Positions 7,451-42,647 of a DNA stretch of 64,000 nt are shown one piece after another. Made by a program: the position numbers and the translations under genes. The stretch comes from Escherichia coli (GTDB lineage Bacteria; Pseudomonadota; Gammaproteobacteria; Enterobacterales; Enterobacteriaceae): assembly GCF_041886205.1 (NCBI RefSeq), contig NZ_CP169029.1, one strand, 5' to 3'. A model generated the notes under the pieces. That model did not search any database. It saw nothing but the letters and a program-made list of their open reading frames with translations, and was not told where the DNA came from. The stretch's first letter is position 1. Every line of letters begins with the position of its first letter.

Positions 7451-7486
7451 AATAAAAAAGGCCCCCCGATTTGGGAGGCCTTATTG
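7451..7486 (-). terminator. pheA attenuator terminator hairpin (minus strand)
   Basis: On minus strand ggcctcccaaatcggggggcc followed by ttttttatt, between pheL stop and pheA start. Confidence 0.7.
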
Positions 7487-7528
7487 TTCGTCTTCGCATT
7501 CTGTTTCACACGACGAAACGCCTCCCAT

Positions 7529-7576
7529 TCAGGGGAAGGTAAAAAAGAATGCGAAGAAAAACGGTGTGTGTTTCAT
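7529..7576 (-). CDS. pheL: pheA leader peptide (15 aa, 7 Phe codons), translated here as MKHTPFFFAFFFTFP
   Basis: Manual translation of the minus strand; not in the ORF track because it is below the length cut-off. Confidence 0.85.
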   Translation of the reverse strand: MKHTPFFFAFFFTFP

Positions 7577-7631
7577 GTTTGTTTCCTTAAGTGACTTTAG
7601 TACAGTACCCGTACTGTTTTCACGCTGTCAA

Positions 7632-9163: not shown

Positions 9164-10144
9164 ATGGCACAACGAGTACAGCTCACTGCAACGGTGTCCG
9201 AAAACCAACTCGGTCAACGCTTAGATCAGGCTTTGGCCGAAATGTTCCCGGATTATTCACGTTCGCGGATAAAAGAATGGATCCTCGACCAGCGCGTGCT
9301 GGTTAACGGCAAAGTTTGTGATAAGCCGAAAGAAAAAGTATTGGGTGGCGAGCAGGTTGCCATCAACGCTGAGATTGAAGAAGAAGCGCGTTTTGAACCG
9401 CAGGATATCCCGCTGGATATCGTCTATGAAGATGAAGACATTATTATCATTAATAAACCGCGCGACCTGGTGGTACATCCTGGCGCGGGTAACCCGGATG
9501 GCACGGTACTGAATGCGTTGCTTCATTACTATCCACCCATTGCCGATGTACCGCGTGCGGGCATCGTCCATCGTCTGGATAAAGACACCACTGGCCTGAT
9601 GGTTGTGGCAAAAACCGTTCCGGCTCAGACGCGTTTAGTCGAATCTTTGCAACGGCGTGAAATTACTCGTGAGTATGAAGCGGTGGCGATTGGTCATATG
9701 ACCGCTGGCGGTACAGTAGATGAACCAATCAGCCGCCACCCGACCAAACGTACTCACATGGCGGTGCATCCGATGGGCAAACCAGCGGTGACTCACTATC
9801 GCATCATGGAACACTTCCGTGTGCACACGCGTCTGCGGTTGCGTCTGGAAACTGGACGTACGCACCAGATCCGCGTGCATATGGCCCATATCACTCATCC
9901 GCTGGTGGGCGATCCGGTTTATGGTGGTCGTCCGCGTCCGCCAAAAGGTGCTTCGGAAGCATTTATCTCCACGCTGCGTAAGTTTGACCGCCAGGCGCTT
10001 CATGCAACCATGCTGCGTCTTTATCACCCGATCTCCGGCATCGAAATGGAATGGCATGCGCCTATTCCACAAGATATGGTGGAGCTGATTGAGGTGATGC
10101 GCGCCGATTTCGAAGAGCATAAAGATGAAGTGGACTGGTTATGA
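9164..10144 (+). CDS. rluD: 23S rRNA pseudouridine(1911/1915/1917) synthase RluD
   Basis: 326-aa ORF with S4 domain and RluA-family catalytic motif (HRLDKDTTGL). Confidence 0.93.
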   Translation: MAQRVQLTATVSENQLGQRLDQALAEMFPDYSRSRIKEWILDQRVLVNGKVCDKPKEKVLGGEQVAINAEIEEEARFEPQDIPLDIVYEDEDIIIINKPRDLVVHPGAGNPDGTVLNALLHYYPPIADVPRAGIVHRLDKDTTGLMVVAKTVPAQTRLVESLQRREITREYEAVAIGHMTAGGTVDEPISRHPTKRTHMAVHPMGKPAVTHYRIMEHFRVHTRLRLRLETGRTHQIRVHMAHITHPLVGDPVYGGRPRPPKGASEAFISTLRKFDRQALHATMLRLYHPISGIEMEWHAPIPQDMVELIEVMRADFEEHKDEVDWL

Positions 10145-10872: not shown

Positions 10873-10934
10873 CCTAAAGAATCAAGACGATCCGGTACGC
10901 GTGATTTTCTTTTCACATTAATCTGGTCAATAAC

Positions 10935-10964
10935 CTTGAATAATTGAGGGATGACCTCATTTAA
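10935..10964 (+). promoter_or_regulatory. Sigma-32 heat-shock promoter of clpB
   Basis: cttgaa ... cctcatttaa, matching the CTTGAA-N13-15-CCCCATNT class, about 40-65 nt upstream of clpB. Confidence 0.6.
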
Positions 10965-11001
10965 TCTCCAGTAGCAACTTTGATCCGTTATGGGAGGAGT
11001 T

Positions 11002-13575
11002 ATGCGTCTGGATCGTCTTACTAATAAATTCCAGCTTGCTCTTGCCGATGCCCAATCACTTGCACTCGGGCACGACAACCAATTTATCGAACCACTTCAT
11101 TTAATGAGCGCCCTGCTGAATCAGGAAGGGGGTTCGGTTAGTCCTTTATTAACATCCGCTGGCATAAATGCTGGCCAGTTGCGCACAGATATCAATCAGG
11201 CATTAAATCGTTTACCGCAGGTTGAAGGTACTGGTGGTGATGTCCAGCCATCACAGGATCTGGTGCGCGTTCTTAATCTTTGCGACAAGCTGGCGCAAAA
11301 ACGTGGTGATAACTTTATCTCGTCAGAACTGTTCGTTCTGGCGGCACTTGAGTCTCGCGGCACGCTGGCCGACATCCTGAAAGCAGCAGGGGCGACCACC
11401 GCCAACATTACTCAAGCGATTGAACAAATGCGTGGAGGTGAAAGCGTGAACGATCAAGGTGCTGAAGACCAACGTCAGGCTTTGAAAAAATATACCATCG
11501 ACCTTACCGAACGAGCCGAACAGGGCAAACTCGATCCGGTGATTGGTCGTGATGAAGAAATTCGCCGTACCATTCAGGTGCTGCAACGTCGTACTAAAAA
11601 TAACCCGGTACTGATTGGTGAACCCGGCGTCGGTAAAACTGCCATCGTTGAAGGTCTGGCGCAGCGTATTATCAACGGCGAAGTGCCGGAAGGATTGAAA
11701 GGCCGCCGCGTGCTGGCGCTGGATATGGGCGCGCTGGTGGCTGGGGCGAAATATCGCGGTGAGTTTGAAGAACGTTTAAAAGGCGTGCTTAACGATCTTG
11801 CCAAACAGGAAGGCAACGTCATCCTGTTTATCGACGAATTACATACCATGGTCGGCGCGGGTAAAGCTGATGGCGCAATGGACGCCGGAAACATGCTGAA
11901 ACCGGCGCTGGCGCGTGGTGAATTGCACTGCGTAGGTGCCACGACGCTTGACGAATATCGCCAGTACATTGAAAAAGATGCTGCGCTGGAACGTCGTTTC
12001 CAGAAAGTGTTTGTTGCCGAGCCTTCTGTTGAAGATACCATTGCGATTCTGCGTGGCCTGAAAGAACGTTACGAATTGCACCACCATGTGCAAATTACTG
12101 ACCCGGCAATTGTTGCAGCGGCGACGTTGTCTCATCGCTACATTGCTGACCGTCAGCTGCCGGATAAAGCCATCGACCTGATCGATGAAGCAGCATCCAG
12201 CATTCGTATGCAGATTGACTCAAAACCAGAAGAACTCGACCGACTCGATCGTCGTATCATCCAGCTCAAACTGGAACAACAGGCGTTAATGAAAGAGTCT
12301 GATGAAGCCAGTAAAAAACGCCTGGATATGCTCAACGAAGAACTGAGCGACAAAGAACGTCAGTACTCCGAGTTAGAAGAAGAGTGGAAAGCAGAGAAAG
12401 CATCGCTTTCTGGTACGCAGACCATTAAAGCGGAACTGGAACAGGCGAAAATCGCTATTGAACAGGCTCGCCGTGTGGGGGACCTGGCGCGGATGTCTGA
12501 ACTGCAATACGGCAAAATCCCGGAACTGGAAAAGCAACTGGAAGCCGCAACGCAGCTCGAAGGCAAAACTATGCGTCTGTTGCGTAATAAAGTGACCGAT
12601 GCCGAAATTGCTGAAGTGCTGGCGCGTTGGACTGGGATTCCGGTTTCTCGCATGATGGAAAGCGAGCGCGAAAAACTGCTGCGTATGGAGCAAGAACTGC
12701 ACCATCGCGTTATTGGTCAGAACGAAGCGGTTGATGCGGTATCTAACGCTATTCGTCGTAGCCGTGCGGGGCTGGCGGATCCAAATCGCCCGATTGGTTC
12801 ATTCCTGTTCCTCGGCCCAACGGGTGTGGGGAAAACAGAGCTTTGTAAGGCGCTGGCGAACTTTATGTTTGATAGCGACGAGGCGATGGTCCGTATCGAT
12901 ATGTCCGAGTTTATGGAGAAACACTCGGTGTCTCGTTTGGTTGGTGCGCCTCCGGGATATGTCGGTTATGAAGAAGGTGGCTACCTGACCGAAGCGGTGC
13001 GTCGTCGTCCGTATTCCGTCATCCTGCTGGATGAAGTGGAAAAAGCGCATCCGGATGTCTTCAACATTCTGTTGCAGGTACTGGATGATGGGCGTCTGAC
13101 TGACGGGCAGGGGAGAACGGTCGACTTCCGTAATACGGTTGTCATTATGACCTCTAACCTCGGTTCCGATTTGATTCAGGAACGCTTCGGTGAACTGGAT
13201 TATGCGCACATGAAAGAGCTGGTGCTCGGTGTGGTAAGCCATAACTTCCGTCCGGAATTCATTAACCGTATCGATGAAGTGGTGGTTTTCCATCCGCTGG
13301 GTGAACAGCACATTGCGTCGATTGCGCAGATTCAGTTGAAACGTCTGTACAAACGTCTGGAAGAACGTGGTTATGAAATCCACATTTCTGACGAGGCGCT
13401 GAAACTGCTGAGCGAGAACGGTTACGATCCGGTCTATGGTGCACGTCCTCTGAAACGTGCAATTCAGCAGCAGATCGAAAACCCGCTGGCACAGCAAATA
13501 CTGTCTGGTGAATTGGTTCCGGGTAAAGTGATTCGCCTGGAAGTTAATGAAGACCGGATTGTCGCCGTCCAGTAA
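11002..13575 (+). CDS. clpB: Chaperone/disaggregase ClpB (two AAA+ modules)
   Basis: 857-aa product [18 protein letters not shown]...; two Walker A motifs ([16 protein letters not shown]); RBS gggaggag. ORF track starts 12 nt upstream at an in-frame ATG. Confidence 0.95.
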
Positions 13576-30746: not shown

Positions 30747-30844
30747 GCCGGATGCGGCGTGAACGCCTTATCCGGCCTACAAGATCGTGCAAATTCAATA
30801 TATTGCATGAGCCACGTAGGCCTGATAAGCGTAGCGCATCAGGC
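30747..30844. repeat. BIME: two inverted REP elements
   Basis: gccggatgcggcgtgaacgccttatccggcctac (30747..30780) and inverted copy gtaggcctgataagcgtagcgcatcaggc (30816..30844). Confidence 0.65.
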
Positions 30845-32362: not shown

Positions 32363-34716
<2,354 letters not shown>

Positions 34717-35004
34717 TTAATTTACTAAACATGATTTGGTCAGAATAGCATCATGTTGTGCGAATAAACACCTGCTATTTTAATATTTGTTACAGTGGCT
34801 AAACACGCTGACGCAGGGCGGCGAGAAAAAGGGAAGTTACTGGCTGGTGGAGGATTAGGTGGTGAAATAAAAAGGCCGTTGGGTTACTCTTCAGGCAGTT
34901 AAATGGGCATTTCTACACAGATAATGCGATGTTCAGATTCTGTAGACTTATAATGATAGATAATGATCCGTCTACAGCATGACAAACAAAAACAGATGCG
35001 TTAC

Positions 35005-35032
35005 GGAACTTTACAAAAACGAGACACTCTAA
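35005..35032 (+). promoter_or_regulatory. Sigma-E-dependent promoter upstream of rpoE (autoregulated)
   Basis: ggaactt - 16 nt - tctaa, matching the sigma-E class. Confidence 0.55.
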
Positions 35033-35114
35033 CCCTTTGCTTGCTCAAATTGCAGCTAATGGAGTGGCGTTTCGATAGCGCGTGGAAATTTGGTTTGGGG
35101 AGACTTTACCTCGG

Positions 35115-35690
35115 ATGAGCGAGCAGTTAACGGACCAGGTCCTGGTTGAACGGGTCCAGAAGGGAGATCAGAAAGCCTTTAACTTACTGGTAGTGCGCTA
35201 TCAGCATAAAGTGGCGAGTCTGGTTTCCCGCTATGTGCCGTCGGGTGATGTTCCCGATGTGGTACAAGAAGCTTTTATTAAAGCCTATCGTGCGCTGGAT
35301 TCGTTCCGGGGAGATAGCGCTTTTTATACATGGCTGTATCGGATTGCTGTAAATACAGCGAAAAATTACCTGGTTGCTCAGGGGCGTCGTCCACCTTCCA
35401 GTGATGTGGATGCCATTGAAGCTGAAAACTTCGAAAGTGGCGGCGCGTTGAAAGAAATTTCGAACCCTGAGAACTTAATGTTGTCAGAAGAACTGAGACA
35501 GATAGTTTTCCGAACTATTGAGTCCCTCCCGGAAGATTTACGCATGGCAATAACCTTGCGGGAGCTGGATGGCCTGAGCTATGAAGAGATAGCCGCTATC
35601 ATGGATTGTCCGGTAGGTACAGTGCGTTCACGTATCTTCCGAGCGAGGGAAGCTATTGATAACAAAGTTCAACCGCTTATCAGGCGTTGA
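35115..35690 (+). CDS. rpoE: RNA polymerase sigma-E (sigma-24, ECF) factor
   Basis: 191-aa product MSEQLTDQVLVERVQKGDQKAF...; ORF track extends 11 codons upstream. Confidence 0.95.
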   Translation: MSEQLTDQVLVERVQKGDQKAFNLLVVRYQHKVASLVSRYVPSGDVPDVVQEAFIKAYRALDSFRGDSAFYTWLYRIAVNTAKNYLVAQGRRPPSSDVDAIEAENFESGGALKEISNPENLMLSEELRQIVFRTIESLPEDLRMAITLRELDGLSYEEIAAIMDCPVGTVRSRIFRAREAIDNKVQPLIRR

Positions 35691-35722: not shown

Positions 35723-36373
35723 ATGCAGAAAGAACAACTTTCCGCTTTAATGGATGGCGAAACGCTGGATAGTGAGCTGCTTAACGAACTGGCTCATAAC
35801 CCAGAAATGCAGAAAACCTGGGAAAGCTATCACTTAATCCGTGACTCAATGCGGGGTGATACTCCCGAGGTGCTCCATTTCGATATCTCTTCACGCGTGA
35901 TGGCCGCCATTGAAGAAGAGCCAGTACGTCAACCGGCGACATTGATCCCGGAAGCCCAGCCTGCGCCGCATCAATGGCAGAAAATGCCATTCTGGCAGAA
36001 AGTACGTCCGTGGGCGGCACAGCTTACCCAAATGGGCGTAGCAGCATGCGTATCGCTTGCAGTTATCGTTGGCGTCCAGCACTATAATGGGCAATCTGAA
36101 ACGTCCCAGCAGCCCGAAACGCCGGTATTTAATACACTGCCGATGATGGGTAAAGCCAGCCCGGTTAGCCTGGGAGTACCTTCTGAAGCGACCGCAAACA
36201 ATGGTCAACAGCAGCAGGTACAGGAGCAGCGTCGTCGCATTAATGCAATGTTGCAGGATTACGAACTGCAACGCCGACTCCACTCTGAACAGCTTCAGTT
36301 TGAGCAGGCGCAAACCCAGCAAGCCGCTGTACAGGTGCCAGGAATTCAAACTTTAGGAACGCAATCGCAGTAA
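35723..36373 (+). CDS. rseA: Anti-sigma-E factor RseA
   Basis: 216-aa product MQKEQLSALMDGETLDSELL..., single TM segment, Gln-rich C-terminus. Confidence 0.92.
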   Translation: MQKEQLSALMDGETLDSELLNELAHNPEMQKTWESYHLIRDSMRGDTPEVLHFDISSRVMAAIEEEPVRQPATLIPEAQPAPHQWQKMPFWQKVRPWAAQLTQMGVAACVSLAVIVGVQHYNGQSETSQQPETPVFNTLPMMGKASPVSLGVPSEATANNGQQQQVQEQRRRINAMLQDYELQRRLHSEQLQFEQAQTQQAAVQVPGIQTLGTQSQ

Positions 36374-37329
36374 TGAAGCAACTTTGGTTTGCCATGTCAT
36401 TAGTGACAGGTAGCCTGTTATTCTCTGCTAACGCCTCGGCCACTCCCGCGTCCGGGGCGTTATTACAGCAGATGAACCTGGCCAGTCAGTCACTGAATTA
36501 CGAGCTGTCATTCATCAGCATCAATAAACAGGGTGTTGAGTCTCTGCGTTATCGACATGCACGCCTCGATAACCGTCCTCTTGCACAATTGTTGCAAATG
36601 GATGGCCCGCGCCGGGAAGTGGTACAGCGCGGCAATGAAATCAGCTATTTTGAACCGGGACTTGAACCGTTCACGCTTAATGGCGATTACATTGTTGATT
36701 CTCTGCCATCGCTCATCTATACCGATTTCAAACGCCTTTCTCCTTACTACGACTTCATCTCCGTCGGGCGCACGCGTATTGCTGATCGTCTTTGCGAAGT
36801 CATTCGCGTGGTTGCCCGAGATGGTACACGCTACAGCTACATCGTGTGGATGGACACTGAATCGAAATTACCGATGAGGGTTGATCTCCTTGATCGCGAT
36901 GGTGAAACGCTGGAACAATTTCGCGTGATTGCTTTTAACGTCAATCAGGATATCAGCAGCAGTATGCAGACGTTGGCGAAGGCAAATTTGCCGCCGTTGC
37001 TTTCTGTTCCTGTAGGTGAAAAAGCTAAATTCAGCTGGACGCCAACCTGGTTGCCACAGGGTTTTAGCGAAGTTTCCAGTAGTCGACGTCCGCTACCGAC
37101 GATGGACAACATGCCTATCGAATCACGTCTCTATTCCGACGGATTATTCAGCTTCTCGGTAAACGTTAACCGCGCTACGCCATCGAGCACCGATCAGATG
37201 TTGCGCACCGGACGCAGAACCGTCAGTACAAGCGTACGTGATAACGCCGAAATCACCATTGTCGGTGAACTGCCGCCGCAAACGGCGAAACGCATTGCCG
37301 AGAATATTAAGTTCGGGGCAGCGCAATGA
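36373..37329 (+). CDS. rseB: Sigma-E regulatory protein RseB (periplasmic)
   Basis: 318-aa ORF with signal peptide; coupled to rseA (1-nt overlap). Confidence 0.93.
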   Translation: MKQLWFAMSLVTGSLLFSANASATPASGALLQQMNLASQSLNYELSFISINKQGVESLRYRHARLDNRPLAQLLQMDGPRREVVQRGNEISYFEPGLEPFTLNGDYIVDSLPSLIYTDFKRLSPYYDFISVGRTRIADRLCEVIRVVARDGTRYSYIVWMDTESKLPMRVDLLDRDGETLEQFRVIAFNVNQDISSSMQTLAKANLPPLLSVPVGEKAKFSWTPTWLPQGFSEVSSSRRPLPTMDNMPIESRLYSDGLFSFSVNVNRATPSSTDQMLRTGRRTVSTSVRDNAEITIVGELPPQTAKRIAENIKFGAAQ

Positions 37330-37805
37330 TCAAAGAGTGGGCTACCGTCGTCTCCTGGCAAAACGGGCAGGCGCTGGTCAGTTGTGATGTTAAAGCCTCA
37401 TGCAGCAGCTGCGCTTCACGCGCCGGTTGCGGTAGCCGCGTGTTGAATAAACTTGGCCCGCAAACCACGCATACCATTGTCGTACCCTGTGATGAGCCGT
37501 TAGTGCCGGGGCAAAAAGTGGAATTGGGGATCGCCGAAGGCAGCCTGCTTAGCTCCGCATTACTGGTTTATATGTCGCCGCTGGTGGGATTATTCCTCAT
37601 CGCTTCGCTATTTCAGCTACTCTTTGCTTCTGACGTCGCAGCATTATGTGGTGCGGTCCTCGGCGGTATTGGCGGGTTCCTGATTGCGCGTGGCTACTCG
37701 CGTAAGTTTGCTGCCCGGGCAGAATGGCAACCGATCATCTTAAGCGTGGCATTGCCGCCTGGCCTTGTGCGATTTGAAACATCTTCGGAAGACGCGAGCC
37801 AGTGA
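37326..37805 (+). CDS. rseC: Sigma-E regulatory protein RseC (SoxR-reducing system family)
   Basis: 159-aa ORF with Cys-rich N-terminus and two TM segments; 4-nt overlap with rseB. Confidence 0.9.
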   Translation: MIKEWATVVSWQNGQALVSCDVKASCSSCASRAGCGSRVLNKLGPQTTHTIVVPCDEPLVPGQKVELGIAEGSLLSSALLVYMSPLVGLFLIASLFQLLFASDVAALCGAVLGGIGGFLIARGYSRKFAARAEWQPIILSVALPPGLVRFETSSEDASQ

Positions 37806-38002
37806 TTTCACTGGCTTTGTTGCATTTTGCATAACAAATGCGAGGACGTTTCCAGATACCACAATCCATACGGTATGAACATTTCCTCGCCTCAATGTTG
37901 TAGTGTAGAATGCGGCGTTTCTATTAATACAGACGTTAAGCTCAGAACAGCGACTTCTAAAAGCCTGGTTAACCGGGCATTAAGGCACAATAATCATACT
38001 TT

Positions 38003-39802
<1,800 letters not shown>

Positions 39803-40838: not shown

Positions 40839-40937
40839 TTATTTATGAGATAAATCTCCCGTGGCTAACGACATCCCCCGTCGTTGTGTATAGAATATTC
40901 CCCCGAAGTTTAAGGTTGGCACCTCCAGGTTGCCACG

Positions 40938-41031
40938 GCACACGAAACAGCGTTGGTCCCCATATACCGCTAAACTGAAACTGCAGCGAAGCAGTTAGCA
41001 GAGCCATGTATATCAGGTCTGTTTCGTGTGC
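40938..41031 (+). promoter_or_regulatory. rnc leader: 13-bp perfect inverted repeat able to form a long-range stem, consistent with the RNase III autoregulatory cleavage site
   Basis: gcacacgaaacag (40938..40950) and ctgtttcgtgtgc (41019..41031) read directly. Confidence 0.5.
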
Positions 41032-41034
41032 TGA

Positions 41035-42647
<1,613 letters not shown>

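What the first reader, a model, noticed from the sequence alone, without database searches (positions are those of the whole stretch)
35005..35032. Sigma-E consensus promoter upstream of rpoE-rseABC
ggaactt - 16 nt - tctaa about 80 bp upstream of rpoE matches the sigma-E recognition pattern, consistent with positive autoregulation of the envelope-stress operon. The four genes are tightly coupled (1-nt and 4-nt overlaps).
Basis: partly seen in the sequence, partly recalled or inferred. Interest (0 to 1): 0.2.

Follow-up and report, generated by a model that had tools for sequence, protein, structure and literature searches.

The report
Known self-activating promoter of rpoE
This is the long-known promoter through which the E. 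coli envelope-stress sigma factor switches on its own gene; it is real and strongly conserved, but it was mapped experimentally decades ago and is not new.

Summary
The motif GGAACTT-16 nt-TCTAA sits exactly at 35005..35032 (+), 82 nt before the rpoE ATG (35115). It is the only perfect sigma-E consensus match in the 64-kb window (about 0.01-0.17 expected by chance). The window is E. coli chromosome and is identical to K-12 MG1655 from 34833 to 35130. The site is therefore the published sigma-E-dependent, autoregulated promoter, called rpoE P2 in 1995 and rpoEP6 since 2016. Published positions fit: a Tn10 at -90 lies 3 nt before its -10 element (so the -10 starts at 35028), and the mapped start at -75 is 35040. 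An insertion between the two elements abolishes stress induction.

GAACT[TA]-N16-TC occurs within 150 nt upstream of rpoE in 75 of 80 gammaproteobacterial loci. It occurs in 0 of 80 control segments, and the spacer sequence varies freely.

- The promoter lies inside the annotated leader-peptide gene rseD (34963..35118).
- rpoE and rseA are separated by 32 nt; they do not overlap.
- Five further promoters lie upstream, and a second sigma-E promoter (rseAp3) lies inside rpoE.

In passing: the invariant first 8 nt of this transcript (GCUUGCUC) are complementary to the rpoE start-codon region. I found no description of this.

The parts
34982..34994 (+). A-rich stretch (ACAAACAAAAACA) at about -58..-46 of the promoter; UP-element-like
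   Evidence: sequence; 60% A+T in 34975-35004 against 49% for the window. AAAAACA is conserved in Enterobacteriaceae. Rhodius 2006 reports A/T-rich elements at -48/-49 and -57/-58 of sigma-E promoters. Assignment as an UP element is inferred.
35005..35011 (+). -35 element GGAACTT (7/7 to the sigma-E consensus)
   Evidence: GAACTT is invariant in 21 Enterobacterales sequences. GAACT[TA] is present in 75/80 gammaproteobacterial rpoE upstream regions.
35012..35027 (+). 16-nt spacer; length conserved, sequence free
   Evidence: the best match has a 16-nt spacer in all 80 loci, and the spacer columns are unconserved. A Tn10 at -90 (35025) and a Tn10dCam between -35 and -10 fall here.
35028..35032 (+). 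-10 element TCTAA (consensus TCAAA / TCNAA)
   Evidence: T, C, A, A conserved. PMC7461557 places the rpoEP6 -10 element 3 nt downstream of -90, i.e. at 35028.
35039..35040 (+). Transcription start of the sigma-E-dependent transcript (published -75 = C35040; G35039 fits the purine and 6-nt-discriminator preference)
   Evidence: PMC8103513 citing Klein 2016. Geometry rules from Rhodius 2006. Coordinates computed. There is a +/-1 nt ambiguity from the numbering convention.
35040..35114 (+). 75-nt leader of the P6 transcript. It contains the invariant 5' octamer GCUUGCUC (35039-35046) and a hairpin (35093-35100 with 35109-35116) over the Shine-Dalgarno/AUG region.
   Evidence: The hairpin with bulged U at -20 is described as polyamine-responsive in PMC4951125. 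CsrA binding at the SD and AUG is described in PMC7652899.
34963..35118 (+). rseD, the 51-aa rpoE leader peptide. It contains the promoter, and its stop overlaps the rpoE ATG (ATGA).
   Evidence: RefSeq annotation; NCBIfam NF033697 leader_RseD, 104 bits against a cut-off of 35; translation.
35115..35690 (+). rpoE (sigma-E, 191 aa)
   Evidence: TIGR02939 RpoE_Sigma70 equivalog, 328.7 bits against a cut-off of 236; annotation.
35461..35495 (+). rseAp3, the second sigma-E promoter, inside rpoE. My reading: -35 CGAACCC at 35461-67, -10 TCAGA at 35484-88, start G35495.
   Evidence: PMC8595263: start 228 nt upstream of the rseA ATG (35723 - 228 = 35495). RegulonDB position 2707654 is listed in a supplement of PMC5493296. 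Sequence. The hexamer assignment is my inference; the site has 3 or more mismatches and was missed by the scan.
35723..36373 (+). rseA (anti-sigma-E)
   Evidence: NF008116, 425.7 bits; annotation.
36373..37329 (+). rseB
   Evidence: NF006990, 543.9 bits; 1-nt overlap with rseA.
37326..37805 (+). rseC
   Evidence: NF008115, 277.5 bits; ATGA overlap with rseB.
34734..34962 (+). Region holding the five sigma-E-independent start sites: P1 at 34734, P2/P3 at 34788, P4 at 34897, P5 at 34962
   Evidence: Positions -381, -327, -218 and -153 from PMC8103513 citing Klein 2016, converted. Sigma factors (RpoN, RpoD/RcsB, RpoS) from PMC6358824 and PMC5736990.

Best explanation
35005..35032 is the core of the sigma-E-dependent promoter of the rseD-rpoE-rseA-rseB-rseC operon of E. 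coli (rpoE P2 of 1995, rpoEP6 of 2016). RNA polymerase carrying sigma-E recognises GGAACTT (-35) and TCTAA (-10), separated by the preferred 16 nt, and starts transcription at about 35039/35040, 75 nt before the rpoE ATG. Envelope stress leads to proteolysis of the anti-sigma factor RseA and frees sigma-E. Free sigma-E then transcribes its own gene (positive feedback) together with rseA and rseB (delayed negative feedback). Because the promoter lies inside rseD, this transcript lacks the rseD start codon. Transcripts from the five upstream promoters carry rseD. What is shown here: the sequence, its geometry, its uniqueness in the window, its identity to K-12 and its cross-species conservation. 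What comes from the literature: sigma-E dependence, the start site and the in vivo role. What is inferred: the UP-element role of the A-rich stretch.
For: The motif is exact and unique in the window. No sigma-70-type hexamer pair is found in 34650-35200. The window is E. coli and identical to K-12 MG1655 over 34833-35130. The 51-mer around the promoter is identical in 5257 of 5424 complete E. coli genomes; the one variant examined changes the first base after the -10 element, not an element itself. In 80 rpoE loci from Enterobacterales, Vibrionaceae, Pasteurellaceae, Aeromonas, Shewanella and Alteromonadales, 70 have a match with at most 2 mismatches in the 250 nt upstream on the sense strand, against 2-3 of 80 in control segments outside rpoE and 10 of 80 in the first 250 nt of rpoE itself. 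75 of 80 have GAACT[TA]-N16-TC within 150 nt upstream, against 0 of 80 on the antisense strand or in -300..-150. The alignment shows invariant -35 and -10 elements with an unconstrained spacer. Literature: consensus GGAACTT/TCAAA, 16-nt spacer preferred, -35 to +1 of 25-28 nt, and two conserved sigma-E promoters in the operon (PMC1312014); -10 element of rpoEP6 3 nt downstream of -90 (PMC7461557); P6 start at -75 (PMC8103513); P6 is the old P2, recognised by E-sigma-E (PMC6358824); a Tn10dCam between -35 and -10 blocks stress induction (PMC2909356); RpoE holoenzyme binds the rpoE-nadB spacer in vitro in genomic SELEX (PMC5493296).
Against: Nothing substantive. The -10 element is TCTAA rather than the commonest TCAAA, but the third position is variable in the family. 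With the published -75 start the discriminator is 7 nt, one more than the preferred 5/6; a start at G35039 gives 6. Sigma-E dependence and the start site were not measured for this strain and rest on K-12 experiments with an identical sequence. I could not read the primary mapping papers (Rouviere 1995, Raina 1995, Klein 2016), only papers that cite them.
Confidence: 0.97

Rival explanations
1. The match is a chance occurrence of a 12-base pattern and has no promoter function.
For: Short consensus patterns do occur by chance. With 2 mismatches allowed, about 47 matches are expected per random window.
Against: A perfect match is expected 0.01-0.17 times per window. It lies at the right distance and orientation before rpoE. 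It is conserved in position, spacing and both elements in 75 of 80 distant loci and in 0 of 80 controls. Published transposon insertions and start-site mapping coincide with it.
Confidence: 0.01
2. The sequence is conserved because it encodes part of the leader peptide RseD (codons 15-24), not because it is a promoter.
For: The motif lies wholly inside the annotated rseD reading frame.
Against: The conservation pattern is that of two short DNA elements with a free 16-nt spacer, not of codons. An ATG-initiated rseD frame covering the motif is found only in some Enterobacteriaceae, and no such frame exists in Vibrio, Pasteurellaceae, Aeromonas and others, yet the motif persists there. Only ATG starts were searched.
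Confidence: 0.01
3. The site is used mainly by another holoenzyme (sigma-70 or sigma-S), and sigma-E dependence is indirect.
For: The same spacer holds promoters for sigma-54, sigma-70 and sigma-S further upstream.
Against: No sigma-70-like hexamer pair is found in 34650-35200. The elements match the sigma-E consensus perfectly. E-sigma-E binds this spacer in vitro without other factors. The literature assigns the other sigma factors to start sites 78-306 nt further upstream.
Confidence: 0.01

Closest known systems
E. coli K-12 rpoE P2 (Rouviere 1995; Raina 1995), renamed rpoEP6 (Klein 2016)
   Same: It is the same element. The sequence is identical from 34833 to 35130. The -10 position, start site and autoregulation all match the published description.
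   Different: Only strain background. There are five SNPs further upstream in the nadB-rpoE spacer (34734, 34744, 34763, 34797, 34832), none in P6.
Other members of the E. coli sigma-E promoter family (Rhodius 2006), including bamDp2 in this same window (9248..9221, - strand)
   Same: GGAAC(T/A)T-16 nt-TCTAA architecture, with the start 5-7 nt after the -10 element.
   Different: They drive regulon genes, not the sigma factor itself. bamDp2 has one -35 mismatch (GGAACAT) and lies inside the divergent rluD coding region.
rseAp3, the internal sigma-E promoter inside rpoE
   Same: Same holoenzyme and same operon. It feeds the negative-feedback arm, rseABC.
   Different: A much weaker consensus match (my reading: CGAACCC-16-TCAGA), missed by the scan. 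It does not transcribe rpoE. It has a 228-nt leader regulated by RyhB and FnrS.
Autoregulated promoters of RpoE/AlgU orthologues in other Gammaproteobacteria, and autoregulation of ECF sigma factors in general
   Same: Orthologous (N)GAACTT-16-TC(N)(N)A sites 54-150 nt (mostly 62-101 nt) upstream of rpoE in Vibrio, Haemophilus, Aeromonas, Shewanella, Pseudoalteromonas and others. That ECF sigma factors commonly transcribe their own operons is general knowledge, not tested here.
   Different: The -10 element drifts by lineage (TCACA in Vibrio, TCTGA/TCAGA in Aeromonas and Pasteurellaceae, TCTAC in Shewanella). The distance to the ATG differs. These lineages have no rseD-like overlapping frame.

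Membership tests
Sigma-E (RpoE, ECF group) dependent promoter of E. coli | -35 element matching GGAACTT | tested here: met
   7/7 at 35005-35011. Consensus from PMC1312014.
Sigma-E (RpoE, ECF group) dependent promoter of E. coli | -10 element matching TCAAA / TCNAA | tested here: met
   TCTAA at 35028-35032, differing from TCAAA only at the variable third position.
Sigma-E (RpoE, ECF group) dependent promoter of E. coli | Spacer of 15-19 nt between -35 and -10, 16 strongly preferred | tested here: met
   16 nt. The best match has a 16-nt spacer in all 80 related loci.
Sigma-E (RpoE, ECF group) dependent promoter of E. coli | Start site 5-6 nt after the -10 element, 25-28 nt after the -35 element, purine preferred | tested here: met
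   The published start at -75 is 35040, giving a 7-nt discriminator and 28 nt from the -35 element. G35039 gives 6 and 27. This is within the published range. The start site itself comes from the literature and was not measured here.
Sigma-E (RpoE, ECF group) dependent promoter of E. coli | A/T-rich upstream (UP) region | tested here: inconclusive
   An A-rich tract at -58..-46 and 60% A+T against a 49% background, partly conserved. No functional model was applied.
Sigma-E (RpoE, ECF group) dependent promoter of E. coli | Transcription depends on sigma-E in vivo and is reproduced by E-sigma-E in vitro | not testable with these tools
   Literature only: E-sigma-E recognition; insertion between the -35 and -10 elements abolishes induction; holoenzyme binding in genomic SELEX.
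Sigma-E (RpoE, ECF group) dependent promoter of E. coli | Conserved at the orthologous position in related genomes | tested here: met
   75 of 80 loci against 0 of 80 controls; footprint alignment.
rseD-rpoE-rseABC operon | Downstream genes are RpoE, RseA, RseB and RseC, preceded by RseD | tested here: met
   All five pass NCBIfam equivalog cut-offs. The RefSeq annotation of near-identical genomes agrees.

The most novel reading that the evidence does not exclude
The first 8 nt of the sigma-E-initiated transcript (GCUUGCUC, 35039-35046) are invariant at all codon positions across Enterobacterales and complementary to GAGCGAGC (35117-35124: the G of the AUG, codon 2 and most of codon 3 of rpoE). 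This may form a 5'-end-to-start-codon helix that exists in this form only on the autoregulated transcript. On transcripts from the upstream promoters, ribosomes translating rseD would run through it. The positive-feedback mRNA would then have its own translation or stability setting, for example damped translation or a protected 5' end. I found no description of this in the papers I could read, but could not read Yakhnin 2017, which studied this leader.
Probability: 0.25. Interest if true: 0.4.

Novelty: already known. Interest (0 to 1): 0.07.

Why it matters
The promoter closes the positive-feedback loop of the main outer-membrane stress response of E. coli. Disrupting it removes stress inducibility while leaving the essential basal expression of rpoE (PMC2909356). 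It has been characterised since 1995, so confirming it here adds no new biology. It does show that a consensus-and-context reading of raw sequence located a true promoter to the base. The corrections matter for anyone annotating the locus: the promoter lies inside rseD, the operon has five genes, six promoters lie upstream of rpoE, and there is an internal rseAp3.

Tried and rejected
- Primary papers were not held in the library: Klein 2016, Rouviere 1995, Yakhnin 2017. Positions were therefore taken from papers that cite them.
- The promoter tables of Rhodius 2006 and Rhodius 2012 are not held as text and no supplements are held. No published sigma-E weight matrix could be applied, so I used a consensus-with-mismatches scan. 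That scan recovers rpoE P6 and bamDp2 but misses rseAp3, so its sensitivity is limited.
- The RegulonDB list in the supplement of PMC5493296 gave rseAp3 and bamDp/bamDp2 positions but no rpoE promoter entry.
- The sigma-70 and terminator scan of 34650-35200 found nothing.
- The whole-leader fold is not unusually stable (z = -1.44, 19 of 200 shuffles as good). Thermodynamics alone therefore does not support the 5'-end helix.
- Outside Enterobacterales the 5'-end-to-AUG complementarity is mostly no better than shuffles. A possible exception is Alteromonadaceae/Colwellia (GUUUGCUU or GUUUGUUU with GAGCGAAC).
- The rseD coding constraint was considered and rejected as the explanation for the motif.

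Full report
**1. Observation**

Reading 34600-35400 shows GGAACTT at 35005-35011, a 16-nt spacer and TCTAA at 35028-35032 on the + strand. The pattern search finds this single match in the window, against 0.01 expected from dinucleotide shuffles. A looser scan on both strands for GGAACTT-N15-17-TCNAA with up to 2 mismatches again gives this as the only perfect match. Random expectations in that scan are 0.17 for a perfect match, 3.1 for at most 1 mismatch and 47 for at most 2.

The only hit in that scan with a complete TCNAA -10 element and a single -35 mismatch is 9248..9221 on the - strand (GGAACAT-16-TCTAA). It lies 185-186 nt upstream of the bamD ATG (9029, - strand). It coincides with bamDp2 of RegulonDB. 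The simple scan therefore picks out two documented sigma-E promoters in 64 kb; the other 1-mismatch hits break the -10 element and match no documented promoter.

**2. Context**

The window is E. coli chromosome. The 1-kb stretch 34700-35700 matches 5425 of 5426 complete E. coli genomes at up to 99.8% identity, and 1-24000 matches one genome at 100%.

RefSeq annotation of a near-identical genome, converted to window coordinates, gives:

| Gene | Coordinates | Strand |
|---|---|---|
| nadB | 33085..34707 | - |
| rseD | 34963..35118 | + |
| rpoE | 35115..35690 | + |
| rseA | 35723..36373 | + |
| rseB | 36373..37329 | + |
| rseC | 37326..37805 | + |
| lepA | from 38003 | + |

All five operon products pass NCBIfam equivalog cut-offs.

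- The rpoE ATG is at 35115, so the -10 element ends 82 nt upstream of it.
- rpoE and rseA are separated by 32 nt. The apparent overlap comes from a TTG at 35687 in the mechanical ORF list.
Its stop overlaps the rpoE ATG, and it contains the whole promoter.

**3. Identity with the published promoter**

The window is identical to K-12 MG1655 from 34833 to 35130, so K-12 experiments transfer directly.

- Rhodius et al. 2006 (PMC1312014) define the sigma-E promoter as GGAACTT and TCAAA. The spacer is 15-19 nt with 16 strongly preferred, the discriminator 5/6 nt, and the -35 to +1 distance 25-28 nt. [quoted passage not shown]
- PMC6358824 states that the autoregulated promoter, now P6 and formerly P2, is recognised by E-sigma-E.
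- PMC7461557 places a Tn10 at -90 from the rpoE initiation codon, '3 nt upstream of the -10 rpoEP6 promoter element'. Position -90 is 35025, so the -10 element starts at 35028, exactly the TCTAA.
- PMC8103513 (citing Klein 2016) lists start sites at -381, -327 (P2 and P3), -218, -153 and -75. In window coordinates these are 34734, 34788, 34897, 34962 and 35040. The P6 start is thus 7 nt after the -10 element; G35039 would be 6 nt after it.
- PMC2909356 describes a Tn10dCam between the -35 and -10 elements of this promoter. It abolishes stress induction of rpoE but leaves basal expression and viability.
- Genomic SELEX with reconstituted RpoE holoenzyme gives a peak in the rpoE-nadB spacer (PMC5493296).
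- No sigma-70-like hexamer pair is found in 34650-35200.

It does not occur: the mapped start fits.

**4. Conservation**

Within E. coli, the 51-mer 34995-35045 is identical in 5257 of 5424 genomes. The one variant examined differs at 35033, the first base after the -10 element.

Across species, a protein-seeded search with RpoE returned 80 loci. They come from Enterobacterales, Vibrionaceae, Pasteurellaceae, Aeromonas, Shewanella, Idiomarinaceae, Alteromonadaceae, Colwellia, Pseudoalteromonas and Rheinheimera.

- In the 250 nt upstream of rpoE on the sense strand, 70 of 80 loci have a match with at most 2 mismatches. In all 80 loci the best match has a 16-nt spacer.
- Control segments give 2 of 80 (antisense), 3 of 80 (-500..-250) and 3 of 80 (downstream). 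The first 250 nt of rpoE give 10 of 80, including the six Rheinheimera/Alishewanella sites described in section 6.
- The core GAACT[TA]-N16-TC is present within 150 nt upstream in 75 of 80 loci and in 0 of 80 for both controls.
- The alignment of 21 Enterobacterales sequences shows invariant GAACTT and T-C-x-A-A with an unconstrained spacer. This is the signature of two protein-contacted DNA elements, not of a coding sequence.
- An ATG-initiated rseD-like frame covering the motif is seen only in some Enterobacteriaceae and is absent in distant lineages that keep the motif. This rules out the coding constraint as the cause. Only ATG starts were searched.

**5. Mechanism**

Shown here: the sequence, geometry, uniqueness and conservation of the elements, and the identity of the downstream genes.

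From the literature: E-sigma-E initiates at about 35040. Release of sigma-E from RseA under envelope stress raises transcription of rpoE (positive feedback) and of rseA and rseB (negative feedback). A second sigma-E promoter inside rpoE (rseAp3) adds rseABC-only transcripts.
- The rseAp3 start is 228 nt before the rseA ATG, i.e. 35495.
- My reading of its elements is CGAACCC at 35461-67 and TCAGA at 35484-88.

Five further promoters upstream respond to sigma-54/QseF, sigma-70/RcsB, sigma-S and other inputs.

Inferred: because P6 lies inside rseD, its transcript lacks the rseD AUG (34963). Translation of rpoE from it therefore cannot use full-length rseD coupling. An in-frame AUG at 35059 (M33 of RseD) remains on it and could give a 19-residue peptide. 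I see no obvious Shine-Dalgarno sequence before that AUG, and it is not conserved beyond Escherichia and Citrobacter.

**6. Things seen in passing**

(a) A possible 5'-end helix. Immediately at the start site, GCTTGCTC (35039-35046) is invariant or nearly so in Enterobacterales at all three codon positions.
- It is complementary to GAGCGAGC at 35117-35124, which covers the G of the AUG, codon 2 and most of codon 3.
- RNAalifold and RNAfold both place this 8-bp helix in the best structure.
- 28 of 30 Enterobacterales loci have 8-14 contiguous pairs there, mostly rare in shuffles.
- The few substitutions are C-to-U changes that keep G-U pairs. In Alteromonadaceae/Colwellia, GUUUGCUU or GUUUGUUU faces GAGCGAAC, where one position reads U-A in place of the C-G pair seen in Enterobacterales.
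- Against this: both sides are otherwise invariant, so there is little true covariation. The whole-leader fold is not unusually stable (z = -1.44). Most distant lineages show nothing.
- I could not read Yakhnin 2017 to see whether this is already described.

(b) A known hairpin. The pairing 35093-35100 with 35109-35116 over the SD/AUG region matches the polyamine-responsive bulged helix described in PMC4951125. CsrA sites are reported at the SD and the AUG.

(c) A possible sigma-54 polymorphism. At 34763 the window has A where K-12 has G.
- In K-12 this G completes a GG-N10-GC pair at -26/-25 and -14/-13 of the shared P2/P3 start, which looks like the sigma-54 -24/-12 motif.
- The A allele, as an exact 59-mer, is in 2775 genomes. 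The K-12 allele is in 1031, and the window's own haplotype in only 8.
- I have not seen the published -24/-12 assignment.

(d) The P5 start (34962) is 1 nt before the rseD ATG and follows a perfect TATAAT (34949-54). rseD would therefore be leaderless on that transcript.

(e) Rfam hits in the window include AsrC, an antisense RNA of rseC (37290..38121, -), and GlmY (53797..53944, +).

(f) Six Rheinheimera/Alishewanella loci carry CGAACTT-16-TCTAA inside rpoE at +101.

**7. Verdict**

The element is already known: it is the textbook autoregulated sigma-E promoter. Interest is low. The only thing with any novelty potential is the conserved 5'-end-to-start-codon complementarity of the autoregulated transcript, which remains a lead.

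Noticed in passing
window 35039-35046 and 35117-35124 (+): The first 8 nt of the sigma-E-initiated transcript (GCUUGCUC) are invariant in Enterobacterales and complementary to GAGCGAGC at the rpoE start codon and codons 2-3. 28 of 30 Enterobacterales loci have 8-14 contiguous pairs, and the helix is in the best predicted fold. There is little true covariation. No description was found in the papers I could read.
   Followed up: partly
window 9248..9221 (- strand): GGAACAT-16 nt-TCTAA, the only hit in the window scan with an intact -10 element and one -35 mismatch. It lies 185-186 nt upstream of the bamD ATG (9029) and inside the 5' end of the divergent rluD gene. It coincides with RegulonDB bamDp2.
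   Followed up: yes
window 35461-35495 (+), inside rpoE: The published second sigma-E promoter, rseAp3, with its start 228 nt before the rseA ATG. My reading is CGAACCC-16-TCAGA with start G35495. The match is too weak to be found by the consensus scan.
   Followed up: partly
window 34762-34775 (+): K-12 has GG-N10-GC at -26/-25 and -14/-13 of the published sigma-54/sigma-70 shared start (34788); the window has GA (A at 34763). Exact 59-mer counts among complete E. coli genomes: A allele 2775, K-12 G allele 1031, the window's own haplotype 8. The published -24/-12 assignment was not available to me.
   Followed up: partly
window 34949-34963 (+): The published P5 start (-153 = 34962) is 1 nt before the rseD ATG and 8 nt after a perfect TATAAT. 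rseD would be essentially leaderless on a P5 transcript.
   Followed up: no
window 34963-35118 (+) and loci L003-L041: Only the C-terminal part of RseD (EWRFD.AW..GLGR.YLG) and the ATGA overlap with rpoE are widely conserved in Enterobacterales. An ATG start giving about 51 aa is seen in Escherichia, Citrobacter and a few others. The NCBIfam model is 45 positions long and aligns to residues 7-51. Only ATG starts were searched.
   Followed up: partly
window 35093-35116 (+): A hairpin (35093-35100 with 35109-35116) covers the rpoE Shine-Dalgarno region and AUG. It matches the polyamine-responsive bulged helix (U at -20) described for rpoE mRNA.
   Followed up: partly
window 37290..38121 (- strand): Rfam AsrC (514 bits), an antisense RNA of rseC described in Salmonella Typhi as a positive regulator of rpoE-rseABC. 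It spans rseC and the rseC-lepA spacer.
   Followed up: no
window 53797..53944 (+); also 40905..41119, 44532..44596 (-), 10883..11021, 30781..30823, 7452..7577 (-): Other Rfam hits: GlmY (whose sigma-54/sigma-70 promoter pair is said to resemble rpoE P2/P3), rncO, ohsC, RyfD, ES036/CssrF and the Phe leader.
   Followed up: no
L067, L072, L073, L075, L078, L080 at +101 of rpoE: Six Rheinheimera/Alishewanella loci carry CGAACTT-16-TCTAA inside the rpoE coding region. E. coli has nothing similar at that place.
   Followed up: no
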